Made by a program: the position numbers and the translations under genes. From a virus, in UHGV virus genome UHGV-0021747: DNA of 30,815 nt. One strand, 5' to 3'. The notes under the pieces were generated by a model, which was not told where the DNA came from, ran no database searches, and saw only the letters and a list, made by a program, of their open reading frames with translations. Positions 2,475 to 22,113 of this stretch are shown here, one piece after another (positions within the stretch are counted from its first letter, which is position 1; every line of letters begins with the position of its first letter).

Positions 2475-2903
2475 ATGAATATGGCGACTGAACCAAAAGC
2501 TGGTCGCCCCTCTGATTATATGCCGGAGGTGGCTGACGATATCTGCTCGTTGCTTTCTTCTGGCGAAAGTTTGCTGAAAGTATGTAAGCGTCCTGGTATG
2601 CCGGATAAGTCCACTGTTTTCCGCTGGTTGGCAAAGCATGAGGATTTTCGCGACAAGTACGCGAAGGCAACTGAGGCACGAGCTGATTCTATTTTCGAAG
2701 AGATATTCGAAATTGCTGACAATGCGATTCCAGATGCTGCCGAGGTGGCAAAGGCAAGACTTCGCGTTGATACCCGCAAATGGGCGCTGGCCAGAATGAA
2801 TCCCCGTAAGTATGGCGACAAGGTAACTAATGAGCTTGTCGGCAAAGACGGTGGCGCAATCCAGATTGAAACATCACCGATGAGCACTCTATTCGGAAAA
2901 TGA
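2475..2903 (+). CDS. terS: Terminase small subunit (Terminase_2-like)
   Basis: N-terminal motif KAGRPSDYMPEVADDICSLL...GMPDKSTVFRWLAKHEDFRDKYA is typical of this small-terminase family. The stop overlaps the terL start as ATGA. Confidence 0.8.
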   Translation: MNMATEPKAGRPSDYMPEVADDICSLLSSGESLLKVCKRPGMPDKSTVFRWLAKHEDFRDKYAKATEARADSIFEEIFEIADNAIPDAAEVAKARLRVDTRKWALARMNPRKYGDKVTNELVGKDGGAIQIETSPMSTLFGK

Positions 2904-4312: not shown

Positions 4313-4314
4313 AC

Positions 4315-6441: not shown

Positions 6442-6454
6442 CCAGGAGTAATCA

Positions 6455-7339
6455 ATGGAAAACGAACTGATCATCGACGGTCAGGTTATTGACCTGTCTG
6501 AAACACAGGAAAATGCAGAAGAAACCATCATCCAAACAGAGTCACAGCCTGAGAATGAAAGCCAGGATGACAACGGTAAAGAGGTGGCAACTGAGCCTGA
6601 AAAAACAGAAGAGACACCAGAAGATTACGCCTTGCGTATTGGTGATGAAGAAATTCAGCTTAACGCTGACGATGATGATCACATTGACGGGCAACCTGCA
6701 CCGCAATGGGTGAAAGATCTTCGCAAAGGCTTCAAAGAAACACAGAAAGAAAACCGTGAGTTGCGCCGCCAGCTTGAGGAAGCATTAGCCAAGCCTGCGG
6801 AACATCAGCAACCACAACAAGACGCTATTCCACCAAAACCGACTCTTGAGTCGTGTGATTATGACGAACAGGCGTTTGAACAGGCATTGACTGATTGGCA
6901 TGAGAAAAAAGGCCGTGTCGAACAGCAGCAGCAACAAAAACTACGTCAGCAACAGGAATACCAACAGCGTTTCCAGCAAAGGGTAGAAGCGCATAAACAA
7001 CGGGCAGCCAAACTTCCTGTGAAAGATTATCAGGAAATGGAGGCCATTGTTCTTAGTGAGCTACCACCAATTCAGCAGGAAATCATCATTCACTGTGCAG
7101 ACGAAGGCTCTGAACTACTCGCCTATGGCTTAGGTAAGAGCCAGCAATTACGCCAGCGTGTAGCCGCTGAGACAGATCCAATTCGCGCAGCATTCCTCTT
7201 GGGGCAGATTAGCAAACAGGTAAGCCTTGCTCCAAAACCAAAGAAAGCCATCAAGCCAGAGCCGGAAGTACGTGGTGGCGGTGCTGATGCGAAACAAGAC
7301 GAATTCAACAAATTATGCCCCGGCGCAAAAATCGAATAA
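6455..7339 (+). CDS. Scaffolding protein (P22 gp8-like)
   Basis: Acidic, Gln-rich 294-aa protein between portal and coat; the C-terminal region resembles the P22 scaffold coat-binding helix-turn-helix. Confidence 0.75.
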   Translation: MENELIIDGQVIDLSETQENAEETIIQTESQPENESQDDNGKEVATEPEKTEETPEDYALRIGDEEIQLNADDDDHIDGQPAPQWVKDLRKGFKETQKENRELRRQLEEALAKPAEHQQPQQDAIPPKPTLESCDYDEQAFEQALTDWHEKKGRVEQQQQQKLRQQQEYQQRFQQRVEAHKQRAAKLPVKDYQEMEAIVLSELPPIQQEIIIHCADEGSELLAYGLGKSQQLRQRVAAETDPIRAAFLLGQISKQVSLAPKPKKAIKPEPEVRGGGADAKQDEFNKLCPGAKIE

Positions 7340-7350
7340 GGAAAAGATAA

Positions 7351-8622
7351 ATGCCTAACAATCTCGACAGTAACGTCAGTCAAATCGTTCTGAAAAAATT
7401 CCTTCCTGGTTTTATGTCAGATTTAGTTCTGGCGAAAACCGTAGACCGTCAGTTGCTGGCAGGTGAAATCAACTCCAGCACTGGCGATAGCGTTAGCTTT
7501 AAACGTCCGCATCAATTCTCATCCCTCCGTACTCCCACTGGTGATATTTCAGGGAAAAATAAAAACAACCTGATCTCAGGTAAAGCTACGGGGCGTGTAG
7601 GTAACTACATCACTGTTGCTGTTGAATATCAGCAACTGGAGGAAGCGATCAAGCTTAACCAACTGGAAGAAATTCTCGCGCCGGTTCGCCAGCGAATCGT
7701 TACCGACCTTGAAACAGAGCTTGCTCACTTCATGATGAATAACGGTGCGTTGTCACTTGGTAGCCCCAATACTCCAATCACCAAATGGTCTGATGTTGCG
7801 CAGACGGCATCTTTCCTGAAAGACCTCGGCGTTAATGAAGGTGAAAACTATGCTGTAATGGATCCATGGTCTGCACAGCGACTTGCTGATGCGCAGACTG
7901 GTTTGCACGCTTCAGATCAATTGGTTCGTACTGCATGGGAGAATGCGCAGATTCCAACCAATTTTGGCGGCATTCGCGCACTGATGTCTAATGGGCTTGC
8001 CTCTCGTACGCAGGGGGCATTTGGCGGAACACTGACAGTCAAAACACAGCCAACTGTTACCTATAACGCAGTTAAAGACTCATACCAGTTCACTGTAACA
8101 TTGACCGGAGCGACAGCCAGCGTTACAGGTTTTCTGAAAGCTGGTGATCAGGTTAAATTCACCAATACCTACTGGCTGCAACAGCAGACCAAACAGGCGT
8201 TGTATAACGGAGCCACACCAATTAGCTTCACTGCAACGGTTACTGCTGATGCTAATTCAGACAGCAGTGGCGATGTGACGGTTACACTTTCTGGTGTTCC
8301 GATTTATGACACTACAAACCCGCAGTACAACTCTGTAAGTCGTCAGGTAGCGGCAGGCGATGCCGTATCTGTAGTAGGCACTGCTAGCCAGACAATGAAG
8401 CCAAACCTGTTCTATAACAAGTTCTTCTGTGGACTTGGCTCTATCCCACTGCCGAAACTGCACAGTATTGATTCTGCTGTTGCAACATATGAAGGTTTCT
8501 CCATCCGCGTACATAAATACGCAGATGGCGATGCCAACGTGCAAAAAATGCGCTTTGACTTACTGCCTGCATATGTATGCTTTAACCCTCACATGGGCGG
8601 TCAGTTCTTCGGTAATCCGTAA
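7351..8622 (+). CDS. Major capsid (coat) protein
   Basis: 423-aa ORF in the coat position, followed by a strong terminator as in P22-like phages. Confidence 0.85.
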   Translation: MPNNLDSNVSQIVLKKFLPGFMSDLVLAKTVDRQLLAGEINSSTGDSVSFKRPHQFSSLRTPTGDISGKNKNNLISGKATGRVGNYITVAVEYQQLEEAIKLNQLEEILAPVRQRIVTDLETELAHFMMNNGALSLGSPNTPITKWSDVAQTASFLKDLGVNEGENYAVMDPWSAQRLADAQTGLHASDQLVRTAWENAQIPTNFGGIRALMSNGLASRTQGAFGGTLTVKTQPTVTYNAVKDSYQFTVTLTGATASVTGFLKAGDQVKFTNTYWLQQQTKQALYNGATPISFTATVTADANSDSSGDVTVTLSGVPIYDTTNPQYNSVSRQVAAGDAVSVVGTASQTMKPNLFYNKFFCGLGSIPLPKLHSIDSAVATYEGFSIRVHKYADGDANVQKMRFDLLPAYVCFNPHMGGQFFGNP

Positions 8623-8626
8623 TAAC

Positions 8627-8653
8627 AAGGGGCTTCCGCCCCTTTTATGTTTT
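8627..8653 (+). terminator. Rho-independent terminator after the coat gene
   Basis: Hairpin aaggggc-ttcc-gcccctt followed by ttatgtttt. Confidence 0.6.
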
Positions 8654-8664
8654 AAGGAAACAAT

Positions 8665-8850
8665 ATGGATCGCATGAGTGTATTCCTTGCCGCAGATAAC
8701 GAATCCGGACATGTACAGGCCGTTATCGCAGATAAAGACTTACTGTTTTTCGAAAAGTTGGGCTTTGTTGCCTCAGTTGATGAATTGAAACCGACCAGTA
8801 AGCGATGTCGTAAGGCGGCAGACAATGGCAACAGTACTGACAAAGGGTGA
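8665..8850 (+). CDS. Hypothetical small protein (61 aa), overlaps the gp4 start
   Basis: AAGGA Shine-Dalgarno 6 nt before the ATG; overlaps gp4 by 26 nt in another frame, so it is uncertain. Confidence 0.3.
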   Translation: MDRMSVFLAADNESGHVQAVIADKDLLFFEKLGFVASVDELKPTSKRCRKAADNGNSTDKG

Positions 8851-9307
8851 GATCGTCCTTTTTGCGCTTCGTAAGTTTGCTATTGCTTCTAATGCATCGC
8901 TGACTGATGTTGAGCCGCAATCAATTGAAGATGGTGTAAATGATCTGGAAGATATGATGTCCGAGTGGATGATTAACCCCGGCGACATTGGTTACGCTTT
9001 CGCAACTGGAGATGAGCAGCCATTACCAGATGATGAGTCAGGTCTTCCAAGAAAATACAAACACGCAGTAGGCTATCAGTTATTGCTGAGAATGCTATCT
9101 GATTACAGCCTTGAACCAACTCCGCAAGTTCTCAGTAACGCCCAACGCTCATATGATGCCTTGATGACCGACACTCTGGTTGTTCCTTCAATGCGACGAC
9201 GTGGAGATTTTCCTGTAGGACAGGGTAATAAATATGACGTGTTTACATCTGACCGATATTATCCAGGCGATCTCCCTCTGATTGATGGCGATATCCCAAA
9301 CGCATAG
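8825..9307 (+). CDS. Head completion / tail accessory factor (P22 gp4-like)
   Basis: N-terminus [42 protein letters not shown] aligns with P22 gp4 as recalled. Confidence 0.85.
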   Translation: [160 protein letters not shown]

Positions 9308-9315
9308 GTGAATAA

Positions 9316-10734
9316 ATGCCGATTCAGCAACTTCCGCTTATGAAAGGTGTCGGCAAAGACTTCCGAAACGCCGACTATATCGACTATCTGCCAGTGAATA
9401 TGTTGGCTACCCCCAAAGAAATACTCAACAGCAGCGGATATCTTCGCTCATTCCCGGGCATTGCCAAACGCTCTGATGTGAACGGTGTATCTCGCGGCGT
9501 AGAGTACAACATGGCGCAGAGTGCTGTTTATCGCGTGTGTGGTGGCAAGCTGTACAAAGGCGAAAGTGAAGTCGGTGATGTTGCCGGAAGTGGTCGCGTA
9601 TCAATGGCGCATGGTCGGACATCACAGGCGGTAGGCGTTAATGGTCAACTGGTCGAGTATCGCTATGATGGCACGGTTAAAACCGTCTCAAACTGGCCTA
9701 CTGACAGCGGATTCACACAGTACGAGTTAGGTTCAGTTCGCGACATTACGCGCTTACGTGGGCGTTATGCGTGGTCAAAAGACGGAACTGATTCATGGTT
9801 TATCACTGACCTAGAAGACGAATCGCATCCTGACCGATACAGCGCACAATATCGCGCAGAATCGCAGCCGGACGGCATCATCGGCATCGGCACATGGCGA
9901 GACTTCATCGTCTGCTTTGGTTCATCGACGATTGAATATTTCTCCCTGACTGGTGCAACCACCGTTGGTGCTTCTTTGTATGTTGCGCAACCATCGCTGA
10001 TGGTGCAGAAAGGCATTGCCGGAACTTACTGCAAAACGCCATTCGCTGATTCGTATGCGTTTATCAGCAATCCGGCAACGGGTGCGCCGTCTGTATACAT
10101 CATCGGATCAGGTCAGGTATCACCAATCGCCAGCGCGAGCATTGAGAAAATACTACGCTCCTACACTGCTGATGAACTGGCTGATGGCGTGATGGAGTCT
10201 CTGCGATTTGATGCGCATGAGCTGCTGATTATCCATCTTCCGCGCCATGTTCTCGTGTACGACGCATCTTCAAGCGCCAATGGTCCGCAATGGTGTGTGC
10301 TGAAAACGGGCCTGTATGACGATGTGTACCGCGCTATCGACTTCATTTACGAAGGCAATCAGATAACGTGCGGCGATAAGCTGGAGTCCGTGACCGGGAA
10401 ATTGCAATTCGATATCAGCAGCCAGTACGACAAGCAACAGGAACACCTGCTGTTTACTCCGTTGTTCAAAGCGGATAACGCCAGAGTGTTCGACCTTGAG
10501 GTTGAATCGTCAACTGGCGTTGCGCAGTACGCCGACCGCCTGTTCCTCTCTGCAACCACTGACGGAATAAATTACGGACGTGAGCAGATGATTGAGCAGA
10601 ATGAACCGTTCGTTTACGACAAACGCGTTTTGTGGAAGCGAGTCGGGCGCATCAGGAAAAATGTCGGCTTCAAATTGCGCGTTATCACGAAGTCACCTGT
10701 CACTCTGTCTGGCGCTCAGATAAGGATTGAGTAA
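9316..10734 (+). CDS. Tail accessory factor (P22 gp10-like)
   Basis: 472 aa, and reads as near-identical over long stretches to P22 gp10 as I recall it ([11 protein letters not shown]..., [20 protein letters not shown]...). Confidence 0.9.
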
Positions 10735-11582
10735 TGGCGGATTCGAATCTCAATGTGCCGGTAATCATTCAGGCTACACGGCTCGACACATCAGTCCTTC
10801 CACGCAATATCTTCTCGCAGTCGTATCTGCTTTACGTTATCGCACAGGGCACTGATGTTGGTAACGTGGCTAACAAGGCCAACGAGGCCGGACAGGGCGC
10901 TTATGATGCACAGGTCAGGAACGATGAGCAGGATGTGATTCTCGCTGACCATGAGCAGCGAATTTCTGCTGCGGAAGCAACGCTTGTTAATCATGAGGAG
11001 CGAATCAGCCAGGCAGAATCAACTCTTCAGGAACATGAAACACGAATAGCGCAGAATGAAAGCGATATTGCGTCGCTTGATACCAGAGTTCAGTCGCTGG
11101 AATCGCAGGTTTCAGACCATGAAACGCGCATCGATGCTCTGGAGTATGCCACTACTCGAAAGAAGTCAGAGGTTGTTTACTCTGGCGTATCAGTAACCAT
11201 CCCGACAGCGCCGACCAACCTTGTTAGCCTGCTGAAAACGCTCACGCCGTCATCCGGGACGTTGGCACCATTCTTCGACACTGTTAACAACAAGATGGTT
11301 GTGTTCAACGAGAACAAAACCTTGTTCTTCAAGCTGTCGATCGTCGGGACGTGGCCCAGCGGAACCGCCAACAGGTCAATGCAGCTAACCTTTTCCGGCT
11401 CTGTTCCTGACACACTGGTAAGCAGTCGCAACTCGGCGACAACGACCGATAACATCCTGTTAGCTACGTTTTTCAGCGTGGATAAAGACGGCTTTCTTGC
11501 CGCAAATGGCAGTACGTTAACCATCCAGTCAAATGGTGCGGCGTTTACTGCCACAACCATCAAGATAATCGCGGAGCAGTAA
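10734..11582 (+). CDS. Tail needle (P22 gp26-like) with C-terminal knob domain
   Basis: Conserved N-terminal tip, a heptad coiled-coil segment (repeated DHExRI...), and an extra C-terminal domain of about 100 aa as in Sf6/HK620-type needles. Confidence 0.85.
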
Positions 11583-12037
11583 TGATTCAGTTCAAACCAA
11601 CGCGAAACATCGACCTGATCGAAGCAGTCGGAAATCACCCTGACATTATTGCCGGGAGCAACAACGGTGATGGATACGACTACAAACCTGATTGCCGTTA
11701 CTTTGAGGTGAACGTGCACGGGCAGTTCGGCGGCATTGTTTACTATCAGGAGATTCAGCCGCTTACATTCGATTGCCACGCCATGTACCTGCCAGAGATT
11801 CGCGGATTCAGCAAGGAAATCGGGCTGGCGTTCTGGCGATACATTCTGACTAACACCACCGTTCAGTGCGTCACATCGTTCGCTGCACGCAAATTCCGCC
11901 ACGGTCAGATGTATTGCGCGATGATTGGCCTTAAGCGTGTAGGAACCATCAAGAAATACTTCAAAGGCGTGGATGACGTGACTTTTTACAGCGCCACACG
12001 CGAAGAACTAATAGACTTCCTGAATCACGGGAGATAG
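11582..12037 (+). CDS. Virion assembly protein, positional equivalent of P22 gp14
   Basis: 151-aa ORF between the needle and gp7; assigned by synteny only. Confidence 0.5.
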   Translation: MIQFKPTRNIDLIEAVGNHPDIIAGSNNGDGYDYKPDCRYFEVNVHGQFGGIVYYQEIQPLTFDCHAMYLPEIRGFSKEIGLAFWRYILTNTTVQCVTSFAARKFRHGQMYCAMIGLKRVGTIKKYFKGVDDVTFYSATREELIDFLNHGR

Positions 12038-12039
12038 CC

Positions 12040-12732
12040 ATGTTATATGCATTTAAGCTGGGCAGAAAACTGCGCGGCGAGGAACCTTATTGCCCTGAAA
12101 AAGGCGGGAAAGGTGGCAGCTCTGATAAAAGCGCAAAGTATGCCGCAGAAGCTCAGAAGTATGCAGCAGACCTGCAAAATCAGCAGTGGCAGACGATCAT
12201 GAAAAACCTTGCTCCGTTCACGCCGCTTGCGGAGCAGTATGTTAACCAGCTTCAGAACCTTTCCAGTTTAGAAGGTCAGGGGCAGGCACTTAATCAGTAT
12301 TACAATTCTCAGCAGTATAAAGACCTTGCAGGTCAGGCTCGTTACCAGAGTCTTGCTGCTGCGGAGGCGACGGGTGGACTTGGTTCGACAGCCACAAGCA
12401 ATCAACTGGCTACGATCGCGCCGACACTCGGTCAGTCTTGGTTATCAAATCAGATGAGCAATTACAACAATCTGGCAAACGTTGGGCTTGGTGCGCTGCA
12501 AGGTCAGGCAAACGCTGGGCAGACATACGCCAACAACATGAGCAGCATTGCACAGCAAAGCGCAGCACTTGCCGCTGCTAATGCCAATAAATCATCAAGT
12601 CTTCAGACTGCAATTAGCGGTGGCACGTCTGGTGCGATTGCCGGTGCAGGTCTTGCCAGCCTTTTGGGAACATCAACGCCTTGGGGCGCTGGCATTGGTG
12701 CTGGTATCGGATTGCTTGGCTCGTTGTTTTAA
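12040..12732 (+). CDS. Ejection (internal virion) protein, P22 gp7-like
   Basis: Position plus composition: Gln/Ala/Gly-rich with a Gly-rich hydrophobic C-terminus. Confidence 0.75.
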   Translation: MLYAFKLGRKLRGEEPYCPEKGGKGGSSDKSAKYAAEAQKYAADLQNQQWQTIMKNLAPFTPLAEQYVNQLQNLSSLEGQGQALNQYYNSQQYKDLAGQARYQSLAAAEATGGLGSTATSNQLATIAPTLGQSWLSNQMSNYNNLANVGLGALQGQANAGQTYANNMSSIAQQSAALAAANANKSSSLQTAISGGTSGAIAGAGLASLLGTSTPWGAGIGAGIGLLGSLF

Positions 12733-12741
12733 GGGGTAATC

Positions 12742-14130
12742 ATGGCTACTTGGCAAGGAACAAACGGCGGATTGTTGGCTGGTATCGGCGGCGTCAACTC
12801 AAACGCTCCAAGCGTAAATGACATCGGCAATACGCTTCAGCTTATCAGGCAGAACAATGATATTGAGCGTTCAGGCGCTAACAATGTTGGGCTGACTGCT
12901 TTGCAAGGCCTTTCAGGTATTGCAGGGGTGTTTCAGCAGGAAAAGCAGGCTCAGCGGCAGAAAGAATTTCAGCAGGCATACGCTAATGCTTATGCGTCTG
13001 GTGATCGCGGTGCTTTGCGCCAGTTGGCTACTCAATATCCAGACCAGATTGAATCCGTTCGTAAAGGCATGGGATTCATTGATGAAGATCAGCGTAATTC
13101 TATCGGCACCTTAGCGGCTGGCGCACGCCTTGCATCATCGTCTCCAGAAGCAATGCAATCATGGCTGCAAAACAACGCCAAGGAACTGACTCGCGTCGGT
13201 GTTGACCCTAACAGCGTTGCTCAGATGTATCAGCAGAATCCTTCAGGATTTGGTGAGTTTGTTGATCACCTTGGAATGGCTGCTCTTGGTCCGATTGATT
13301 ACTTCAATGTTCAGGACAAGATGGCAGGTCGTGAGATTGACCGAGGCAGGCTGGCAGAGACAATCCGCAGCAATCAGGCTGGAGAGGCGCTAACAGCACG
13401 AGGTCAGAACATCACGATGCGCGGTCAGGACTTATCTGCTTCTACTGCGCGACGAGGTCAGGATTTGGCTATGCAGCGAGCGTCAACAAGAGGAATCGCT
13501 GGGAATGATGAGCGTACAGTTCAGTTATCAGATGGCAGAACTGTAACGGTAGGCGGGAAGCTTCACGGAGCTGGGGCTAATGCGTTCTACGAAGGCATCG
13601 ACAACGAGGGGAATATGGTTCGCGTCCCTGCCAGTTCAATCGCTGCGCCTGCAACATCGTCTGCATCAGCACAAAACTATGCCATGAAGAAGGATATCGA
13701 CGCGATCGCAAATGCAGACGCTTCTGCTCTCGATTTCATGACAGGAATGACCGGCGGTGCAGGTAACCCGGCAATTGGTGCTGATGTTCGCAGCCGATTA
13801 ACAGGAAAAGAGCAGCGCCAGTTATATAACTCAGCACAACGTATTCAGGGCAGAATGCAGAATCAGGGTGTGGCGGCAGCAAGGGACATGGGTGCCAGTG
13901 GTATTAACACCGTTGCAGAAGCGAAGATGTATTTTCAGGGGATGCCGCAGGTTGACTATTCAAGCCCGGAGGCTATGCAGCAGTCGATTCGTGAGATTCA
14001 GGAATACACCAACAATTACAACCAACAATATAACGTTACTGTTGGTAAATCTCAGCGGCAGCAATCTCAACCTGCACAGGTATCACAGCCAGCAGCCAGC
14101 AGTAACTTTTCTTCACTATGGGGTGATTAA
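12742..14130 (+). CDS. Ejection protein, P22 gp20-like
   Basis: 462-aa ORF in the conserved position; composition typical of E-proteins. Confidence 0.75.
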
Positions 14131-16127
14131 TGGCTAAAGCATGGAAAGATGTTATCGCCTCTCCACAGTATCAGGCGTTAGCACCAGAACAAAAAGCGCA
14201 GGCTCAGGAGCAATACTTCAATGAAGTCGTGGCCCCGCAAGCCGGAGAAAATGCAGAGCAGGCTAAGCAAGCTTTCTATGCTGCCTATCCATTGCCATCT
14301 GTGCAGCAAGTGGAGACACAGCAACCAGTTGCACAGCAACAACCACAGCAAAGTGGATTTATGTCTGATCTTGGCGAAGCAGTAAAAGAGACTGGTCGCG
14401 GACTGGTGCAGGCTGGCGTGAACGTGGCAAACATACCTGCATCAGTTGCCGATGCTGTAACAAGCGCGGCGGCTTGGGCTGGCGGTAAACTCGGCATTGG
14501 CGATGGTACATATCAACCAGCGCCACGAGTAACAACGCAGGGATTAGAGCAGGACTTTGGCCTTCAGCAAGGCGCGCTGACTCCACAAACGACAGAGGGA
14601 AGGGTATTTGCTGAAGCATTGCCTTACCTCACTCCTGCTGGCGTTGAGAGAGCGGCAACACAGGCACCAACACTTGCTGGTCGAATTGCTCAGGGGGCAA
14701 CTCGCCTTCTAGCAGAAAACGCAGTTGGATCACTTGCTGCAAATAGTGCGAAAGATGATGCGGAAGCACTCGCTACCGATTTAGGTGTTGGAGTTCTGGC
14801 AGGCGGCGCTATTAACGCTGCTGGACGTGGATTAGGTGCTGCTTATCGTGGTGTTCGTGGTTCGATATCACCCGAAGCGCAACAGGCTATCAAGTTTGCA
14901 GAGCGTGAAGGCGTGCCTCTGCACACCACAGACCTGTTACAACCGACTTCCCGCATCGGTAAAATGGCGCAGACGACAGCGGAAAATATCCCTCTGGCTG
15001 GCACAAGCGGAATGAGAGCAACGCAACAGGAAGCGAGAAGCCAGTTGGTGCAGAGATTTGCTGATAAATTCGGTGAGTATGATCCAGCTGTTGTTATTGA
15101 CAGCCTTAAAGCGAAAACATCAGGAATTCGTCGTGCTGCAGGGAACCGTCTTGAGCAGGTTCAGAATGCAATGGCGGGAGTCAATATCCAGCCTGCTCGA
15201 GCAATTCAGCAGATTGATACAGAAATATCTAACCTGCAGAAGCTTGGTAAGGTCGCCGATAACGAGACTATTTCAAAACTTCAGTCCTATCGTGATGAGC
15301 TTGTTCGCAATGCTGGTCCTGATGGTCCGGTAAATCTGGATTTGAAGCAATTAAGCGACCTGCGCAGCCAGTTCAGAATGGACGTGAAGGGTGAGCGACC
15401 AGTGTTACCAAACCGTTCCGATGCTGCCATTCAGCGCGTTTACAAGGCGATGACAGACGATATCAATGGTGCCATTGGTCAGAATCTTGGCAACGATACT
15501 CTCCGTAAATATCAGCAGGCCAATGCCGTATACGCTGACGAAGCGGCGAAACTAAAGAATACCAGGCTGAAGAATGTTCTCATGAAAGGCGATCTGACGC
15601 CGGAAGTTGTCAACAACATGCTATTCAGCAAGAACAAATCGGAAATTAAGACTCTGTATAACTCAGTTGGTCGTGTTGGCAGGGCGCAAATGCGCAATGG
15701 CATCATTGGAAAGGCGATGGAGAAATCAGGTGGTTCCCCTGACCAGTTCCTTCGGCAGCTTAACATCCTGCAAAACCAGACTGGCATCACATTTAAAGGT
15801 CAGGAAGCCGCTTATCTGAAAGGATTGAAAAACTACCTGCAATCCACGCAGCAGGCTGCAAAAGCGGCAGTAACAACACCAACAGGGCAGCAAACCATCC
15901 CGTTCATTATCGGGTATGGGACGGCAATGAACCCGGCGACAACTGCCGCAGCGGTAAGCTACGGACTTCTTACTCGCGCCTATGAGAGCGAGCCATTCAG
16001 AAATGCAATGCTCCGAATGGCAAACACCCCACGCGGATCAACAGCGTTTGAGAAAGCCATGCAGCAGGCGCAAAAGGCCATTAACGCCCTGACTCAAGGT
16101 GCCAAGTCTGATGCGTTGTCAGAATAG
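14130..16127 (+). CDS. Ejection protein, P22 gp16-like
   Basis: 665-aa ORF in the conserved position, coupled to the upstream gene by an ATGA overlap. Confidence 0.75.
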   Translation: MAKAWKDVIASPQYQALAPEQKAQAQEQYFNEVVAPQAGENAEQAKQAFYAAYPLPSVQQVETQQPVAQQQPQQSGFMSDLGEAVKETGRGLVQAGVNVANIPASVADAVTSAAAWAGGKLGIGDGTYQPAPRVTTQGLEQDFGLQQGALTPQTTEGRVFAEALPYLTPAGVERAATQAPTLAGRIAQGATRLLAENAVGSLAANSAKDDAEALATDLGVGVLAGGAINAAGRGLGAAYRGVRGSISPEAQQAIKFAEREGVPLHTTDLLQPTSRIGKMAQTTAENIPLAGTSGMRATQQEARSQLVQRFADKFGEYDPAVVIDSLKAKTSGIRRAAGNRLEQVQNAMAGVNIQPARAIQQIDTEISNLQKLGKVADNETISKLQSYRDELVRNAGPDGPVNLDLKQLSDLRSQFRMDVKGERPVLPNRSDAAIQRVYKAMTDDINGAIGQNLGNDTLRKYQQANAVYADEAAKLKNTRLKNVLMKGDLTPEVVNNMLFSKNKSEIKTLYNSVGRVGRAQMRNGIIGKAMEKSGGSPDQFLRQLNILQNQTGITFKGQEAAYLKGLKNYLQSTQQAAKAAVTTPTGQQTIPFIIGYGTAMNPATTAAAVSYGLLTRAYESEPFRNAMLRMANTPRGSTAFEKAMQQAQKAINALTQGAKSDALSE

Positions 16128-16216
16128 CTTCGCAAACACCAGGAACGTGCAAAAACCAAATATGTAGAACGCAATATTCAGCATATCTCTTTGCATAAAT
16201 CCTCCGTAACTGATAG

Positions 16217-16510
16217 TTAGCTGCTGTCTTTTTTATATAGCTCTTTGAGCGTATCAAAGACAATTTTCTTTACCATATCGGATTGTTGTTCTGCCATACG
16301 CTCTGCATCGTCAATGTAAACTGATGCAGAGCTTTGTTTAGTCAATGATTCTTCAATCGCTGCAATTATCTCTGAGTTCAGCGACCTGTTATTCATCTTC
16401 GCACGCTGTTTAATTTTCGCGTGAAGTTCATGCGGAAGTCTCAAGTGAAACTGCGCCTCGTCGTATTTGCTGTACATCCTTGATGCCTCACCAGTTGGGT
16501 GGAATGGCAT
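16217..16510 (-). CDS. mnt: Mnt-like ribbon-helix-helix repressor (likely start at the internal Met, 16477)
   Basis: C-terminal half ...RSLNSEIIAAIEESL...DDAERMAEQQSDMVKKIVFDTLKELYKK matches P22 Mnt closely as recalled; the N-terminal DNA-recognition strand differs. Confidence 0.8.
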   Translation of the reverse strand: MPFHPTGEASRMYSKYDEAQFHLRLPHELHAKIKQRAKMNNRSLNSEIIAAIEESLTKQSSASVYIDDAERMAEQQSDMVKKIVFDTLKELYKKDSS

Positions 16511-16550
16511 CGTAACCTACTGGATAAATACTCAATAGTACCATTTCGGT

Positions 16551-16573
16551 ATGCAATCACATCATGGTTGCAT
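16551..16573. promoter_or_regulatory. Inverted repeat ATGCAA-N11-TTGCAT between mnt and tailspike; candidate operator
   Basis: Seen directly in the sequence; sits in the divergent mnt/tailspike intergenic region. Confidence 0.3.
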
Positions 16574-16598
16574 CATATCATTCGTCTGGAGCAATGAA

Positions 16599-17090
16599 AT
16601 GTCAGATATCACCGCAAATGTTGTGGTAAGCATGCCTTCGCAACTCTTCACTATGGCTCGTTCTTTTAAAGCCGTAGCCAATGGCAAAATTTATATCGGT
16701 AAAATTGGCACTGACCCGGTAAATCCTGAAAACCAGATTCAGGTTTATGTGGAAAACGAAGACGGTTCTCACGTTCCTGTTGCACAGCCAATCATCATTA
16801 ACGCTGGCGGGTATCCTGTATATAACGGACAGATTGCCAAATTCGTAACTGTGCAAGGCCATTCTATGGCTGTATACGATGCGTACGGTTCTCAGCAGTT
16901 CTATTTTCCGAATGTGCTGAAGTATGACCCTGACCAGTTTGAGCAAAGGTTCATGGATGAAATTAGTTCGCCAGACGGTTACAAAATAATAGGTGGGTTA
17001 GAGGTCAGGCTTTCTGTATACGATATAGCTGCTGCTGATGGTGAAAGAAATAGCGATCAGTTGAATTCTTTTTTTGCTGAGTTTAAATGA
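16599..17090 (+). CDS. Tailspike N-terminal head-binding domain, ending at an in-frame TGA
   Basis: [11 protein letters not shown]...[34 protein letters not shown]...[15 protein letters not shown]...NVLKYDPDQ matches the P22 gp9 N-terminal domain as recalled. GGAG Shine-Dalgarno 8 nt upstream of the ATG. Confidence 0.85.
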
Positions 17091-17096
17091 ACTCCA

Positions 17097-18845
17097 GTGA
17101 AAATCTACTCAACTATGCCACTGACTTTCACTATCGACAAAGAGACAACGTTATACGGAGATTTTGATCTCAGCAATTGCACGTTCAACCTGGCTGGCGG
17201 TAAGATTGTTTATGCTGATGAGAGAGACGCATCTACATACATTAAAGATTTTACACCATCAGCATATCCATTAAACGAGCTAACTTCCGCGCTAACATTT
17301 ACAGAGTCAACCACTGGATGGGATAATTCCTTAGTTAAGATGTCTGGTACTGAAATTGACTTGTACCGATTGCTTGGCAGCACTTTCACGCCAAAATACA
17401 AAGGTGAAGTTAACCTACTAACCAAAGGAAGTGATTTAGCGTATACATTTAAGAATACATACAACTCTTCACTTATCTGTACTTTATATAAGCTGCCTGT
17501 GCGAAGGACTGTCATTGTATTGCCTAAGTTATCAGGGACGTTTACTGGCACGGCTGTTGATATCAAAAGGTCTATGGTTGATGTAAGGGTTAATTATGAT
17601 AATACCTTAGGAGCAATACCCATCAACTCTGCAATTTTTGGTAGTAGTAATACATACGGTGTTAATTGGTATTTGTGCTCATCGGGGATGACACAACCTG
17701 ATTCTGAATCTCGCTACACATTGACTCTAGAGTTTACTCTGAAGCATTCTTTTTTTAGCACTGTTGTTGGGAAAGGGTGGCGTTCTATTGATGGTAATTA
17801 TAGCCGTGACACTGTGGTAAGAGATTGCACTGTTGATAGCTTCAATCTTCATTATGGATCGTCTAAGGTTTTGATAGACAATTGCAGGATAATTAATGGC
17901 GCGGCTTTTGGTACTGGCGCTTTTGATGAATCAACGCAGATTATAAACTCAGATATTGGTCCCTTTGGGATTCGCACTGACTATGGAGAGCATAAGGGGG
18001 ATTTTATTGTCAAAGGGGGTTCGGTAAGAATATCATCGGACAAAACTGGGCTTGTAGATCTCTTCACATGCAGGTGTGATAATGTTGTTTCCACTGGTAG
18101 CCCTGTTCAGCCTAGAGCATTAAATCTGCCAAAAAATGTAATTATATCTACAAATATCTACTGGCCTGACGCAGTCACACTTAACATTGTTTCATTTAAA
18201 AATAATTTTAAGACACAAAATAGCATTATTCGTGATTTCATTATGCCTGGCGTTATAGATTTCTCCGGAAGCACCTTTAATGGTAAAAATGCAAGATTTG
18301 AGTGGGCCATCTCTTACCATGATTCAACTTCCAGAGAAATATCAATAGTCAATCTGACACCTGCGAAATCAATTGTTTGTAAGGTTTTAGCTTATATTGG
18401 ATACCTGAATGAGTATGCATCATGCCTTTATGGTCTTGAGAGCAATATGGACATAACTTTCATGAACTTTACGTCTGGAATGTCTCGCAGCTATATTAGG
18501 CTGGAAGGTGGGGTGCTGCGCAGGTTTGTTGGTTACTCCGGAGGGACAACCTATATGTTAGGAAGCGTGTATTTTGATAAGTCGTTGATAGATTGGGATT
18601 CAAGCAATAACCTAGTTTCAGGACTTATGTCGGTGTCTGATTGCCTTATAGACGGAACGAGGGCCAAAGGAACATCGTCCAGTAAGCCTGTTGTAAATAC
18701 ATTCGTGCACAGATCTGCAAATAATATTTGCCATGAAATTATTGCTACAGACTCAAGGGATGTGGTTGATAAGAAGTTCGCTTTATGCAGCAGGGAAGGT
18801 GCAGCAGGCAACTTCTCTACAGGAGAAATACCTATCTCTTACTAA
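17097..18845 (+). CDS. Putative tailspike receptor-binding (beta-helix-like) module, in frame with 16599..17090 across one TGA
   Basis: Same frame as the upstream ORF; no Shine-Dalgarno before GTG 17097 or ATG 17115. AT-rich, Ser/Thr/Asn/Gly/Ile-rich composition typical of tailspike beta-helix domains. Confidence 0.55.
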   Translation: MKIYSTMPLTFTIDKETTLYGDFDLSNCTFNLAGGKIVYADERDASTYIKDFTPSAYPLNELTSALTFTESTTGWDNSLVKMSGTEIDLYRLLGSTFTPKYKGEVNLLTKGSDLAYTFKNTYNSSLICTLYKLPVRRTVIVLPKLSGTFTGTAVDIKRSMVDVRVNYDNTLGAIPINSAIFGSSNTYGVNWYLCSSGMTQPDSESRYTLTLEFTLKHSFFSTVVGKGWRSIDGNYSRDTVVRDCTVDSFNLHYGSSKVLIDNCRIINGAAFGTGAFDESTQIINSDIGPFGIRTDYGEHKGDFIVKGGSVRISSDKTGLVDLFTCRCDNVVSTGSPVQPRALNLPKNVIISTNIYWPDAVTLNIVSFKNNFKTQNSIIRDFIMPGVIDFSGSTFNGKNARFEWAISYHDSTSREISIVNLTPAKSIVCKVLAYIGYLNEYASCLYGLESNMDITFMNFTSGMSRSYIRLEGGVLRRFVGYSGGTTYMLGSVYFDKSLIDWDSSNNLVSGLMSVSDCLIDGTRAKGTSSSKPVVNTFVHRSANNICHEIIATDSRDVVDKKFALCSREGAAGNFSTGEIPISY

Positions 18846-18851
18846 AGGTCA

Positions 18852-18875
18852 AGCCATGCGCTAACGCATGGCTTC
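18852..18875. terminator. Bidirectional terminator hairpin between the convergent tailspike and acyltransferase genes
   Basis: Perfect palindrome agccatgcg-ctaa-cgcatggct followed by ctaattttac on the + strand. Confidence 0.5.
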
Positions 18876-18880
18876 TAATT

Positions 18881-20029
18881 TTACTTTGAAAAGATCGCGG
18901 CAAATCTATGGGAAACCTCGATGCTTTTTCTGTCGATGAGCAAATAAAAGATGTAAGAACATGCATAAAGCATCACCACTGATATTAAAACAGCTGATAA
19001 ACATGCGCTGGAGTCGCTCATGATTTTCCTTGATTCATGATAAACTGGCCCTGATAAGCAATAAAATACAGGCATTTGAATCAAGTATGCCGAGAATGAT
19101 AACTTTCCTAAAAAGACCATGATTTTTGATTCAGAAAACCATGACATAACCCCAATCTTACATAGGGAATATACCACTCCAATTCCAGATAATAGATTGA
19201 AAAGCAAGTATACATTTATTTTCTCAATGCTGTGAATAGATAATGAAAATTCTTTTAACCATGCGTAAAGATAATGATTATATTTAAATCCAGCCAAGTA
19301 AAGTGATGCAATAAGAATTGCATATCCAATAACCTTATTCTTATATGAACCGCATAAACATATAGCCATACCAAAAAGGAATGATGCGTACCCATATGCA
19401 TTTTTATCATTAAAGTTAATTATGATTAAAACTGCGATTAAAGATAATATTAGCGGTGCTTTTTTAATAAAGATAGAAATAGGAGATATCAAAAAGACAA
19501 GGAGAGAACCATAAAACTCAACCTGCATAGTCCATGTAACCATATTTATTGATGAGTCACCTTTGAGTATGGAGCCATATAGTGAGTTTTTTAAAACTCC
19601 TATCACAGATAAATCACCATCTTTACCCAATGACCAAATCCACGGAACCCAATACTTATTGAAAGGGAAGTAATTTACAACAATTGCGCAAATAATAATC
19701 GATGCCGAAACTGGTATTAATAATCTTACATACCTTTCTAGCAGCATCTTTGCGGACTTCTTAGATATACAACCAGACCTGAAAATAACACTTGTAAGTA
19801 TATATCCGCTTAATACAAAGAATATATATACAGCTGAAGTTCCAGAGTAAGTGAAGCCTATTGGTAAATCTCTTGTCACCGCATCAAAAGAAGACTTAAT
19901 TATCTTTGTGTCTCCAGTATGCAGGTAAGGGAAAAAAATTATTGATAGATGAGAAAGCACTACCATCAAGCAGGCCAACCCCCTCACACCCTCTACCGAA
20001 AGAACCTTGCCACCATCAATCTTATTCAT
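18881..20029 (-). CDS. Acyltransferase family 3 integral membrane protein (putative O-antigen/surface polysaccharide acyltransferase)
   Basis: 382 aa from ATG at 20029 (the supplied ORF extends to TTG at 20050). Multi-pass hydrophobic profile and an N-terminal ...GVRGLACLMVVLSHL motif typical of acyltransferase-3. Strongly AT-rich. Confidence 0.8.
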   Translation of the reverse strand: MNKIDGGKVLSVEGVRGLACLMVVLSHLSIIFFPYLHTGDTKIIKSSFDAVTRDLPIGFTYSGTSAVYIFFVLSGYILTSVIFRSGCISKKSAKMLLERYVRLLIPVSASIIICAIVVNYFPFNKYWVPWIWSLGKDGDLSVIGVLKNSLYGSILKGDSSINMVTWTMQVEFYGSLLVFLISPISIFIKKAPLILSLIAVLIIINFNDKNAYGYASFLFGMAICLCGSYKNKVIGYAILIASLYLAGFKYNHYLYAWLKEFSLSIHSIEKINVYLLFNLLSGIGVVYSLCKIGVMSWFSESKIMVFLGKLSFSAYLIQMPVFYCLSGPVYHESRKIMSDSSACLSAVLISVVMLYACSYIFYLLIDRKSIEVSHRFAAIFSK

Positions 20030-20192
20030 ATAATTTCCGTATATGCACAAAGTTAGTGTGCATTAATAAAAGATAATACCCCTACTTGCATAACAGATAG
20101 CACGTGTAACTAAACGCTGAGCAATCAGAGGTTTCCGTAATTATCTGAGTTTATCACTCAAATCTCTATTGATCGACACCACCGATCGACAA

Positions 20193-20212
20193 TGCTGTGT
20201 TCATATACAGTA
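20193..20212. promoter_or_regulatory. LexA (SOS) box tgCTGTgttcatatACAGta
   Basis: CTGT-N8-ACAG with flanks close to the E. coli consensus, 18 bp upstream of the umuD'-like ATG and just upstream of its GGAGG Shine-Dalgarno. Confidence 0.55.
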
Positions 20213-20229
20213 ACTACCGGAGGTGAGTT

Positions 20230-20621
20230 ATGGGATTACCGATCCCGGCTGCTGATTACGTTGAGAACCGCCTGTCGCTTGATGAGAGATTCATCCACAA
20301 ACCGTATGCTACCTACTACATGAAAGCGTCAGAGACAATCTATCGCTTCGGCATTATGAAAGATGCGCTGCTGGTCATCGACTCGTCGCTACCCACCCCC
20401 TGTGATGGCTCATTGCTGGTTTGTGAGTTTGTGAGATAGTGGGTGAGTTCAAGGTGAAGATTTACCGAACATATCCTCAGCTTCATCTTGAGAACGCACT
20501 GAACGGGCGAAAAGAAAAGTTGCCTTGTCACTTTGGCGGGATAGAGACGGTATTTGGGGTGATCACGTGCATCATCAACGATGCGCGTACAGGTGAGTTT
20601 GATGGCTACCCGCTGAAGTGA
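20230..20621 (+). pseudogene. umuD'/humD-like gene split by a frameshift (8-bp tandem duplication tttgtgag at 20420..20435)
   Basis: ORFs 20230..20439 and 20439..20621 together align with UmuD residues about 25 to 139 as recalled (PAADYVE..., GEFxVK, VFGVI). Deleting one repeat copy restores a single 129-aa frame. The GDSM catalytic motif is replaced by ETIY. Confidence 0.6.
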
Positions 20622-20630
20622 AAATAGTGT

Positions 20631-20928
20631 TGTGTACCAAATTGCGTACCAAACTAAAATCACAAATCATGAAACCCTTGTTCATGGCGGTTCTCAGGGG
20701 TATTGCGCGTAATCGTGAAAGAGGAAGGTAGGTTGTTTATCTGTGTCTGTCATTGTCTAGCATTGTCCACTGTAGTTAATTAACTGTCTGTTATAACTCG
20801 AAAAACAACCATTTTTTCACCTGAGTATGTCTACGAACGTCAAATATAGTTGTTTACTGTGCGCTGTTGTCCATGTGATATTGTGTACCAGATGTGTACC
20901 AAACCATTATTTCTGAGCGTACCAAATA
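20631..20928. other. Putative attP: five GTACCA(A/G)A arm-type repeats flanking a ~230-bp AT-rich core
   Basis: Repeats at 20634, 20647, 20885, 20896 and 20920, immediately upstream of int; typical of integrase arm sites. Confidence 0.45.
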
Positions 20929-20934
20929 TTATTT

Positions 20935-22113
20935 ATGGCTATAAGCGACACAAAACTGCGTACTATTTATGGTAAACCATATTCGGGCCCACAAGAAGTG
21001 GCTGATGCCGATGGCCTCAGCGTACGAATTTCACCGAAGGGGGTCATCCAGTTCCAGTACCGCTATCGCTGGCATGGCAAGCCTAATCGACTTGGGCTTG
21101 GTCGATACCCATCCCTGTCTTTGAAGGATGCCAGACAGATCACTGCTGACTTGCGAAAGCTCTATTTCTCAGGAACGGATCCACGCACCTATTTTGAAGA
21201 GAAGGTGGAGAACTCCATGACGGTCGCCCAGTGTCTCGACTACTGGTTCGACAACTACGTCTCTACAACTCTCAGAGAAAAGACCCAGGCACTTTACCGA
21301 TCAACGGTTATGAAGCGCATGCATGACGCCTTTCCTAATCGTCCGGCATCTTCTATCACGGTTAAGCAATGGGTTGACCTGCTTACCGAAGAAGAAAGAG
21401 ATAATCCACGCCGAGCAAGGCAGGTGCTAAGTCAACTAAGATCAGCAATAAGTTGGTGCATGCGGCGTCAGTTGATAGATAGTTGCGCAATTATGAGCAT
21501 CCAACCAAGGGACTTCGGCTCCCGCGCTGAGGTAGGGGATCGGGTACTGTCGTATCACGAACTGGCTAAGATTTGGCTTGCTATTGAAAGAAGCCGTGCG
21601 TCTACGTCAAATAAGCTCCTTCATCAGATGCTTATGCTGTGGGGGGCGAGGCTCTCAGAGCTTAGGCTGGCAACAAAGACAGAATTTGACCTGCTGGACA
21701 ACGTATGGACCGTACCGAAAGAGCATAGCAAGATGGGTAATGTTATCCGCCGTCCAATCTTCGAACAAATTAAGCCTTTTCTCGAAAAGGCCATGACAAC
21801 GTACAATGATGTTCTTTTCCCTGGAGAAGACATAAACAAACCGATCAGCATCGCTGCAGCCAACCGATTCGTAAATAGAATAAGGGGAGGGATGGATCTG
21901 GGTTACTGGCGAACACATGATTTCAGAAGAACGCTTGTTACACGTCTGTCCGAGATGAATGTCGAGCCTCATGTTACTGAGCGAATGCTCGGTCATGAAC
22001 TTGGCGGGATAATGTCCGTATACAATAAACACGACTGGATAGAGGCTCAGCGCAAAGCGTATGAGCTTCACGCTGATAAATTGTTCTGGCACATCAGGAG
22101 CATTTCTGATTAA
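20935..22113 (+). CDS. int: Tyrosine integrase (P4-like, N-terminal arm-binding domain)
   Basis: N-terminus ...DGLSVRISPKGVIQFQYRYRWHGKPNRLGLGRYPSLSLKDAR is the arm-type DNA-binding domain signature; C-terminus has HDFRRT...LGH...VYNKHDW catalytic motifs. Confidence 0.9.
   Translation: MAISDTKLRTIYGKPYSGPQEVADADGLSVRISPKGVIQFQYRYRWHGKPNRLGLGRYPSLSLKDARQITADLRKLYFSGTDPRTYFEEKVENSMTVAQCLDYWFDNYVSTTLREKTQALYRSTVMKRMHDAFPNRPASSITVKQWVDLLTEEERDNPRRARQVLSQLRSAISWCMRRQLIDSCAIMSIQPRDFGSRAEVGDRVLSYHELAKIWLAIERSRASTSNKLLHQMLMLWGARLSELRLATKTEFDLLDNVWTVPKEHSKMGNVIRRPIFEQIKPFLEKAMTTYNDVLFPGEDINKPISIAAANRFVNRIRGGMDLGYWRTHDFRRTLVTRLSEMNVEPHVTERMLGHELGGIMSVYNKHDWIEAQRKAYELHADKLFWHIRSISD

What the first reader, a model, noticed from the sequence alone, without database searches (positions are those of the whole stretch)
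16599..18845. Mosaic tailspike interrupted by a single in-frame TGA between the conserved head-binding domain and an AT-rich receptor-binding module
ORF 16599..17090 encodes the conserved P22-type tailspike N-terminal domain through the YDPDQ linker. ORF 17097..18845 is in the same frame, separated only by TGA at 17088..17090 plus two codons. The downstream ORF has no Shine-Dalgarno before either candidate start, so it looks like it was meant to be translated as a continuation. Base composition turns AT-rich about 45 codons before the stop, so the stop lies inside a swapped-in module rather than at the junction. The alternatives are a recent nonsense mutation (defective tailspike), a sequencing error, stop-codon readthrough, or a genuine two-protein tailspike. 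A free head-binding domain fragment could also act as a dominant-negative decoy against related phages.
Basis: partly seen in the sequence, partly recalled or inferred. Interest (0 to 1): 0.7.

Follow-up and report, generated by a model that had tools for sequence, protein, structure and literature searches.

The report
Nonsense-mutated phage tailspike gene
A normal one-piece tailspike gene of an Sf6/P22-like E. coli phage has been cut in two by a single recent G-to-T change (GGA to TGA), which is an ordinary loss-of-function mutation and not a designed split or recoding site.

Summary
ATG 16599 opens a P22-type head-binding domain, TGA sits at 17088-17090, and the same frame continues from GTG 17097 to 18845.

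The stop is a simple nonsense mutation. Of 14 sequences that carry this junction, 10 have GGA, one has GAA, and only the window plus two near-identical metagenome contigs have TGA. Intact 748-codon alleles, 99.8% identical in DNA, occur in many E. coli prophages. Homology to one-piece tailspikes of five other phage groups runs straight across the stop.

In a model of the intact allele, codon 164 lies between the N-terminal cap helix and the first strand of a right-handed beta-helix depolymerase fold. That is inside the receptor-binding module, not at a domain boundary.

The downstream ORF has no Shine-Dalgarno sequence. The flanks match the intact alleles apart from one linked G-to-T change 18 bases upstream. 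TGA ends seven other genes in the window.

TGA recurs in three assemblies of at least two genotypes, so it is not a random read error. The rest of the virion module is intact and the contig is in the excised (attP) form, so the lesion is recent. The most likely result is non-infectious particles.

This is ordinary and of low interest.

The parts
16599..18845 (+). Whole tailspike gene (748 codons), interrupted at codon 164. It is the orthologue of intact 748-aa E. coli prophage tailspikes.
   Evidence: L009, L010 and L013 are 99.6-99.8% identical over all 2247 bases and have no internal stop.
16599..17090 (+). Truncated product of 163 aa plus TGA. It holds the complete head-binding domain plus the first ~50 residues of the receptor-binding module, including the cap helix.
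   Evidence: Pfam PF09008 over residues 1-113. PDB matches to Sf6 gp14 residues 1-126 and P22 tailspike 1-115. The exact 163-aa product is found on 3 contigs.
16926..16950 (+). YDPDQ linker and the mosaic junction where similarity to most P22-like tailspike genes ends.
   Evidence: matches end at query positions 335-353, which is window 16933-16951. Literature: head-binding domains (aa 1-115) are conserved and C-terminal parts are swapped (PMC2629481).
17070..17070 (+). Linked G-to-T substitution (GTT to TTT, Val158Phe) found only in the TGA lineage. It creates a run of seven T.
17088..17090 (+). Premature stop TGA. The ancestral codon is GGA (Gly164), and one G-to-T transversion at 17088 produces the stop.
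   Evidence: GGA in 10 loci, GAA in 1, TGA only in the window, L007 and L008.
17091..18845 (+). Remainder of the receptor-binding module, a right-handed beta-helix depolymerase fold. It is now downstream of the stop. The candidate restart codons GTG 17097 and ATG 17115 have no SD.
16217..16510 (-). mnt/arc-type repressor gene immediately upstream, part of the normal P22-like context.
   Evidence: Pfam Arc and Repressor_Mnt on the identical gene in L007.
18881..20050 (-). O-antigen acyltransferase (Acyl_transf_3) for serotype conversion, in the same position as oac in Sf6.
20708..20737 (.). Approximate att core. The window joins the oac end of the prophage to the int end, so it is in the excised (attP) form.
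   Evidence: prophage L010 matches up to window 20737, then host DNA follows. Prophage remnants L011 and L012 match from window 20708 into int.
20935..22113 (+). Tyrosine integrase.
   Evidence: Arm-DNA-bind_3 and Phage_integrase.

Best explanation
The locus is a normal single-polypeptide tailspike gene of an Sf6/P22-like temperate phage of E. coli: an N-terminal head-binding domain fused to a beta-helix O-antigen-binding/depolymerase module. It has recently suffered a real nonsense mutation, GGA (Gly164) to TGA, through one G-to-T transversion at 17088.

Shown here: the ancestral state, the single-base change, its recurrence in three assemblies, its position inside the folded module, and the absence of any restart or recoding signal.

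Inferred: translation ends at codon 164 and releases a 163-aa head-binding fragment. Little or no functional receptor-binding protein is made. On induction the phage still excises, replicates and packages DNA, but the particles lack working tailspikes or carry only the N-terminal stub, so they cannot adsorb. The prophage is therefore confined to vertical inheritance, an early step of prophage decay.
For: (1) A DNA alignment with two E. coli prophage tailspikes that are 749-aa single ORFs shows GGA and GAA where the window has TGA, within a stretch that is otherwise almost identical.

(2) The cluster at 90% identity or more around the 582-aa ORF consists mostly of 748-aa full-length E. coli proteins reading …NSVFAEFKGTPVKIY…, where the window reads …[14 protein letters not shown]….

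(3) A census of the junction gives GGA in 10 loci, GAA in 1 and TGA in 3. L009, L010 and L013 are 99.6-99.8% identical over the whole gene and open throughout.

(4) The TGA lineage differs from intact L009/L010 within the gene at only 5 positions. One of these (18054) is private to L009/L010. The rest are 17070, 17088 and 18376, all G-to-T, and the window-private A-to-T at 18353.

(5) Homology to one-piece tailspikes of ECO1230-10, P433.1, Paul and PM16 continues on both sides of the stop. Residues D142, S152, L155, N156 and F159 upstream of it are nearly invariant.

(6) In an AlphaFold2 model of the intact allele, residue 164 lies between helix 152-161 and strand 168-170 in a block with pLDDT of 89-95. 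The fold matches phage tailspike depolymerases.

(7) There is no SD before GTG 17097 or ATG 17115.

(8) TGA ends 7 other genes in the window, and no tRNA gene is present.

(9) The window, L007 (33 kb, ERZ28614137) and L008 (ERZ27287221) all carry the TGA but are not identical to one another.

(10) All 13 Sf6-type virion genes upstream are full length, so the lesion is recent.

(11) The same allele is broken independently elsewhere: TGG to TGA at codon 394 in a decayed prophage remnant (L011/L012), and a 1-nt deletion in L016.
Against: Two contigs (the window and L007) run through attP, so phage-form DNA was abundant in those samples. The three TGA contigs also differ by a few SNPs. A fully dead-end phage would not be expected to circulate, although spontaneous induction of a vertically inherited lysogen explains both facts.

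I could not inspect reads, so a minority intact allele in the samples cannot be excluded. L007 and L008 are identical where they overlap and may come from the same sample, which would reduce the independent support to two genotypes.

UGA is leaky in E. coli, at about 2-4% in K-12 reporters (PMC10570021), so the allele may be a strong hypomorph and not a strict null.
Confidence: 0.88

Rival explanations
1. Leaky stop. Natural UGA readthrough by tRNA-Trp yields a few percent of full-length (Trp164) tailspike. This would keep the phage weakly infectious and allow the TGA allele to persist as a hypomorph.
For: UGA readthrough in E. coli K-12 reporters is about 2% at 37 C and 4% at 25 C (PMC10570021). 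The stop is followed by A, which from memory, not checked here, is a context reported as relatively leaky for UGA. Phage-form (attP) contigs occur in two assemblies, and there are SNP differences among the TGA contigs.
Against: The flanking sequence matches that of intact alleles apart from the linked G-to-T at 17070, so no context has evolved for readthrough. The stop is absent from 11 of 14 relatives. Trimers need three full-length chains, and the roughly 50-fold excess of 163-aa head-binding fragments should compete for the six tail sites (inference from P22 biology). All lineage-specific changes in the gene are nonsynonymous or nonsense, which fits drift.
Confidence: 0.06
2. Sequencing or assembly error. 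The true sequence has GGA and the gene is intact.
For: The window is a metagenome-assembled contig. The two lineage-defining changes are G-to-T changes 18 bases apart next to a T-run. L007 has a run of N inside the same gene.
Against: The same TGA and the linked 17070 T occur in three contigs from three ENA analyses made with at least two naming schemes or assemblers, and these represent at least two genotypes. Substitution errors rarely reach the consensus in short-read assemblies.
Confidence: 0.04
3. Functional two-piece tailspike. The 163-aa head-binding fragment mounts on the tail, and a separately translated 582-aa receptor-binding protein (restart at GTG 17097 by termination-reinitiation) joins it non-covalently or acts as a free depolymerase. 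Alternatively, the free head-binding fragment serves as a decoy against related phages.
For: GTG lies only 6 nt after the stop, a spacing at which terminating ribosomes can reinitiate (general knowledge). Adaptor-plus-spike systems exist in other podoviruses (general knowledge). A 582-aa product of the same ORF is annotated in one E. coli isolate (P0029), though its upstream DNA could not be read.
Against: The break lies inside a folded element, between the cap helix and the first beta-strand, and not at the module boundary about 48 codons upstream. There is no SD. The related cluster representatives that were examined carry an N-terminal anchor in the same polypeptide; a few shorter entries (559-630 aa) were not examined. 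There is no compensating sequence change relative to intact alleles. The late-operon position gives no reason to expect expression in the lysogen, which a decoy would need (inference).
Confidence: 0.02

Closest known systems
Sf6 gp14 / P22 gp9 / HK620 tailspikes (Lederbergvirus-type)
   Same: The N-terminal head-binding domain matches (PF09008; 1-126 aligns to Sf6 gp14, E 5e-64). The gene position is the same: after the ejection-protein genes and mnt, before oac and att. The C-terminal part is a beta-helix receptor-binding module, and the mosaic junction falls right after YDPDQ.
   Different: The receptor-binding module is a different sequence family with no Pfam or PDB sequence match. In this window the polypeptide is cut at codon 164 by TGA.
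Intact 748-aa E. coli prophage tailspikes (for example WP_069915789.1 and HFP5434111.1, here P0019 and P0017)
   Same: They have the same length and are 99.6-99.8% identical in DNA over the whole gene. Their neighbours are also the same: mnt upstream and the acyltransferase downstream.
   Different: They have GGA (Gly) at codon 164 and GTT (Val) at codon 158. They were found as integrated prophages.
Classical P22 gene 9 nonsense (amber) mutants
   Same: Both involve premature termination in the tailspike gene. From established P22 genetics (own knowledge), such mutants make DNA-filled, tailspike-less particles that are non-infectious but can be activated in vitro by adding purified tailspike.
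   Different: This is a natural UGA allele seen in metagenomes, not a laboratory amber mutant. Its phenotype has not been tested.
Receptor-binding modules of phages vB_EcoM_ECO1230-10 gp17, vB_EcolP_P433.1 gp9, Paul gp012 and Proteus PM16 gp45
   Same: The module is homologous over the full 582 aa (70%, 59%, 55% and 41% identity). The homology extends 25-45 residues upstream of the stop.
   Different: In those phages the module is attached to other N-terminal anchors, from myovirus, Autographiviridae and Kuravirus types, and is always one ORF.

Membership tests
P22-like (Lederbergvirus-type) tailspike | N-terminal head-binding domain (PF09008) | tested here: met
   residues 1-113, E 3e-67. Sf6 and P22 N-termini.
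P22-like (Lederbergvirus-type) tailspike | C-terminal right-handed beta-helix receptor-binding/depolymerase module | tested here: met
   The AlphaFold2 model of the 99%-identical intact allele has pLDDT of about 85-95 over residues 140-690. Foldseek top hits are phage tailspike depolymerases: 8x8m, 7w1c, 4y9v, 4ru4 and 4ru5.
P22-like (Lederbergvirus-type) tailspike | Both parts in one uninterrupted polypeptide | tested here: not met
   TGA at codon 164. This feature is met in the orthologues. The window copy is therefore a disrupted member.
P22-like (Lederbergvirus-type) tailspike | Position at the end of the late operon, after the ejection-protein genes and before O-antigen modification and att | tested here: met
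P22-like (Lederbergvirus-type) tailspike | O-antigen binding and cleavage activity | not testable with these tools
   This needs biochemistry.
Gene inactivated by a nonsense mutation (pseudogene) | Near-identical intact orthologues with a sense codon at the same position, one base change away | tested here: met
   GGA against TGA..
Gene inactivated by a nonsense mutation (pseudogene) | The lesion is real and not an error of one assembly | tested here: met
   Three contigs of at least two genotypes carry it. Reads were not inspected.
Programmed stop-codon readthrough (Q-beta A1 type) | The stop codon is conserved among relatives | tested here: not met
   11 of 14 junction sequences have a sense codon.
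Programmed stop-codon readthrough (Q-beta A1 type) | A dedicated context or suppressor tRNA | tested here: not met
   The flanks match the intact alleles except for the linked G-to-T at 17070. The window has no tRNA gene. TGA terminates 7 other genes.
Two-gene adaptor plus tailspike systems | The second gene has its own ribosome-binding site and start | tested here: not met
   duplex energies of -2.2 and -0.5 kcal/mol.
Two-gene adaptor plus tailspike systems | The split falls at a domain boundary and is conserved in relatives | tested here: not met
   The split falls between the cap helix and the first strand. The related proteins that were examined are fused.

The most novel reading that the evidence does not exclude
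The TGA allele is not a dead end. The phage keeps circulating, which would explain the attP-form contigs in different samples and the few SNPs between them. It could do so because UGA-A is read through at a few percent, giving enough Trp164 full-length tailspike for rare infectious particles. Alternatively, the abundant 163-aa head-binding fragment gives the lysogen an advantage, either as a decoy that poisons assembly of superinfecting P22-like phages or by preventing self-inflicted O-antigen stripping by spontaneously released virions.
Probability: 0.05. Interest if true: 0.5.

Novelty: already known. Interest (0 to 1): 0.12.

Why it matters
It matters little beyond annotation. The two ORFs should be annotated as one disrupted tailspike gene, not as two proteins, and the phage should be flagged as probably adsorption-defective.

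Two modest uses remain. The case shows an otherwise complete, excision-competent Sf6-like phage whose only visible lesion is in the host-recognition gene. Together with two independent breaks of the same allele elsewhere, this fits the view that tailspike loss is an early and recurrent step in prophage domestication. The intact allele (748 aa) is also a clean example of a receptor-binding module shared by at least five phage groups.

Tried and rejected
- Selenocysteine or altered genetic code: rejected. Relatives have GGA or GAA, and TGA ends 7 other genes in the window.
- Suppressor tRNA carried by the phage: none found in the window.
- Frameshift or slippery-site bypass: irrelevant, because both ORFs are in the same frame. 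The TTTAAAT next to the stop is not in the register of an X XXY YYZ heptamer (read from the sequence).
- Close DNA matches in complete E. coli genomes and in GenBank phages: none covers more than 26% of the gene. The orthologues had to be found through the protein cluster look-up.
Exact look-ups of four plausible 163-aa N-terminal fragments with Val158 found nothing. Whether that isolate carries the same TGA remains open.
- Pfam and PDB sequence searches on the 582-aa part gave nothing. Only the fold comparison identified it.
- Literature searches for natural tailspike nonsense alleles and for head-binding amber fragments gave context but no direct precedent.
Full report
**1. Checking the observation.** The sequence is as described. 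ATG 16599 starts [17 protein letters not shown]…. The frame reads …GAG TTT AAA TGA ACT CCA GTG…, with TGA at 17088-17090. GTG 17097 continues in the same frame to TAA at 18843-18845, giving 582 aa. The whole span is 748 codons including the internal stop.

The first ORF matches Pfam PF09008 (Head_binding) over residues 1-113 with E 3e-67. It also aligns to the N-termini of the solved Sf6 gp14 (1-126) and P22 tailspikes. Neither candidate start of the second ORF has a Shine-Dalgarno sequence: anti-SD duplex energies are -2.2 and -0.5 kcal/mol, against -5.6 to -8.4 for ATG 16599 and three other late genes.

The composition shift is modest, with GC 0.442 before 16940 and 0.398 after (profile). 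The mosaic junction is real all the same. 1117 records from complete E. coli genomes and 28 phage records match the gene only up to about 16933-16951, immediately after YDPDQ at 16926-16940. This agrees with the published pattern for P22-like tailspikes: conserved head-binding domains (aa 1-115) and exchanged C-terminal parts (PMC2629481).

**2. Context.** The window is an Sf6-like (P22-like, Lederbergvirus-type) phage genome. Positions 2481-16197 are 97% identical to Sf6 and to phage Gally. Its virion genes have the same order and lengths as in Sf6, from small terminase to gp13. An mnt/arc-type repressor lies upstream at 16217-16510 on the minus strand. An Acyl_transf_3 O-antigen acyltransferase (18881-20050, minus strand) and a tyrosine integrase (20935-22113) lie downstream.

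Comparison with integrated relatives places the att core at about 20708-20737. Prophage L010 matches up to 20737 and then continues into host dacD-side DNA. Remnants L011 and L012 match from 20708 into int. The window therefore joins the two prophage ends, which means it is in the excised, phage-form configuration.

**3. What the stop is.** Two E. coli prophages (strains JX21CE33 and 'numer 3') match the gene across the stop. They carry a single 749-aa ORF annotated 'phage head-binding domain-containing protein'. Where the window has TGA they have GGA and GAA, inside a stretch that is otherwise almost identical.

The exact-sequence and cluster look-up then found the true orthologues. The cluster at 90% identity or more around the 582-aa ORF has 50 members, most of them 748-aa full-length E. 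coli proteins on dozens of contigs. They read …NSDQLNSVFAEFKGTPVKIYSTMPL…, where the window reads …[19 protein letters not shown]….

DNA for several of them (L009, L010, L013, L015) is 99.6-99.8% identical to the window over the gene and is open throughout. A pattern scan of IMG/VR and the JGI metagenomes, combined with the loci already held, gives this census of the junction: GGA in 10, GAA in 1, and TGA in 3. Inside the gene, the TGA lineage differs from intact L009/L010 at only five positions:
- 17070, G to T (Val158Phe)
- 17088, G to T (Gly164 to stop)
- 18376, G to T (Gly to Val)
- 18353, A to T (Lys to Asn), private to the window
- 18054, private to L009/L010

One transversion therefore accounts for the split.

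**4. Is the stop real?** The exact 163-aa truncated product is encoded on three ENA contigs: the window, L007 (a 33-kb scaffold, ERZ28614137) and L008 (4.3 kb, ERZ27287221). All three have the TGA and the linked T at 17070. The window differs from L007 at seven substitution positions, leaving aside a run of N in L007, and from both L007 and L008 at 18353. L007 and L008 are identical where they overlap. At least two genotypes from at least two assemblies share the stop, which argues strongly against a random error. I could not inspect reads.

**5. Where the stop falls in the protein.** Homologues of the 582-aa part sit in one-piece tailspikes of very different phages:
- Jilinvirus ECO1230-10 gp17, 825 aa, 70% identity
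- Vectrevirus P433.1, 684 aa, 59% identity
- Kuravirus Paul, 1150 aa, 55% identity
- Proteus phage PM16, 689 aa, 41% identity

In a multiple alignment the homology continues 25-45 residues upstream of the stop. For example, PM16 has SPEGYKLIGGLSGKLMSFDISTLVDTPNSAALNSIFKRFR against the window's [40 protein letters not shown]. The column of the stop holds G, E, G, G, G and D.

A database search returned 40 cluster representatives, most carrying the module behind an N-terminal anchor (PF09008, PF18668 or another). Three entries of 559-630 aa, about the size of the module alone, were not examined. In a 29-sequence alignment, residues D142, S152, L155, N156 and F159 upstream of the stop are nearly invariant.

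The AlphaFold2 model of the intact allele P0017 has pTM 0.72 and pLDDT of about 85-95 from residue 140 to about 690. It places Gly164 between helix 152-161 and strand 168-170. Foldseek against the PDB returns phage tailspike and capsule depolymerases with right-handed beta-helices: Klebsiella K64-ORF41 8x8m at E 4e-16, then the K1 lyase 7w1c, AP22 gp54 4y9v, LKA1 gp49 4ru4 and phi297 gp61 4ru5. The C-terminal part is therefore a receptor-binding fold, and the stop removes its N-terminal cap instead of separating two domains.

**6. Recoding or a designed split?** Nothing supports either.
- Relatives lack the stop.
- The sequence around it matches that of intact alleles apart from the linked G-to-T at 17070.
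- The window encodes no tRNA.
- TGA terminates seven other genes in the window.
- There is no ribosome-binding site for a second protein.

Basal UGA readthrough in E. coli K-12 reporters is about 2% at 37 C and 4% at 25 C (PMC10570021). A small amount of full-length Trp164 protein is therefore possible. However, tailspikes are trimers, and the roughly 50-fold excess of head-binding fragments would be expected to compete for the six sites on the tail. That last point is inference from P22 biology.

**7. Most likely mechanism and consequence.** Translation stops at codon 164 and gives a 163-aa fragment: the head-binding domain plus about 50 residues. The receptor-binding part is made poorly or not at all. 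The other 13 virion genes are full length and the contig is in attP form, so the phage can probably still excise, replicate and package. Classical P22 gene 9 nonsense mutants make full heads that are non-infectious for lack of tailspikes (own knowledge), and the same is expected here.

The lesion is recent, because there are only a handful of substitutions relative to intact alleles and all of them are nonsynonymous or nonsense. The same allele has been broken independently in other lineages:
- TGG to TGA at codon 394, in a prophage remnant that has lost its structural genes and has an IS element in int (L011/L012).
- A 1-nt deletion in an A-run at window position 18131, in metagenome contig L016. 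This one could be a read error.

Loss of the tailspike is thus a recurrent event in the decay of this prophage family.

**8. Comparison with what is known, and verdict.** The gene is a disrupted member of the P22/Sf6-type tailspike family. Its receptor-binding module belongs to a sequence family with no Pfam model and no solved structure, but it has the usual beta-helix fold. A nonsense-mutated phage structural gene is a well-known kind of thing.

The more exotic alternatives are not supported. Confidence in the nonsense-mutation reading is about 0.88. The remainder is split between a leaky hypomorph (0.06), an assembly error (0.04) and a functional split or decoy (0.02). Interest is low, at 0.12.

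Noticed in passing
window 20708-20737 (att core), with 18881-22113 around it: The contig joins the oac end of the prophage directly to the integrase end, so it is in the excised, attP-containing phage form. L007 shows the same join. Phage-form DNA was therefore abundant in the samples even though the tailspike gene is broken.
   Followed up: partly
L011 10001-12247 and L012 9706-11952 (equivalent to window 17778-17780): The same tailspike allele is broken independently by TGG to TGA at codon 394. This occurs in a heavily decayed prophage remnant in which the structural genes are deleted, a truncated replication gene abuts mnt, and an IS element sits inside int.
   Followed up: partly
L016, position 1224 (equivalent to window 18131, an A-run): A JGI metagenome contig of the same allele has a 1-nt deletion that frameshifts the receptor-binding module. 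This is either another natural disruption or a homopolymer read error.
   Followed up: no
window 17070, 17088, 18376, 19994, 20243: Five of about twelve changes specific to the TGA lineage in 16100-20750 are G to T on the + strand, and none is C to A. This could be an oxidative-damage or strand-biased signature. The numbers are too small to test.
   Followed up: partly
window 16941-17186, against L001 and L002: There is a second mosaic boundary. The first ~170 bases of the module (linker and cap helix) are nearly identical to a different tailspike type (JX21CE33 and 'numer 3'), whose remaining ~580 residues are only ~70% identical. The cap region thus appears to act as a shared recombination joint between receptor-binding variants.
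   Followed up: partly
P0029 (NCBI ENI2360892.1, E. coli isolate, 548-kb contig): A 582-aa product starting at the same GTG is annotated in an isolate genome. It has the Lys and Gly residues of the intact alleles at the two downstream variant sites. Its upstream DNA could not be retrieved, so it is unknown whether it shares the TGA or has another lesion.
   Followed up: partly
window 18881-20050 (- strand): The O-antigen acyltransferase gene has very low GC (0.34, against 0.47 for the window). This is typical of horizontally acquired serotype-conversion cargo. In relative L009 the same gene is shorter (332 aa against 382 aa).
   Followed up: no
PDB 6tgf chain F, against residues 7-134 of the intact tailspike: A chain deposited as 'Exopolysaccharide biosynthesis protein' (736 aa) matches the head-binding domain region at E 1e-12. 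It is a non-phage-annotated protein that carries this domain.
   Followed up: no
window 8733-8744 and 10617-10626, against L007: The SNPs between the two TGA-carrying contigs are clustered: three within 12 bases and two within 10 bases. This suggests small recombination patches or strain mixtures in the assemblies, not clock-like divergence.
   Followed up: no
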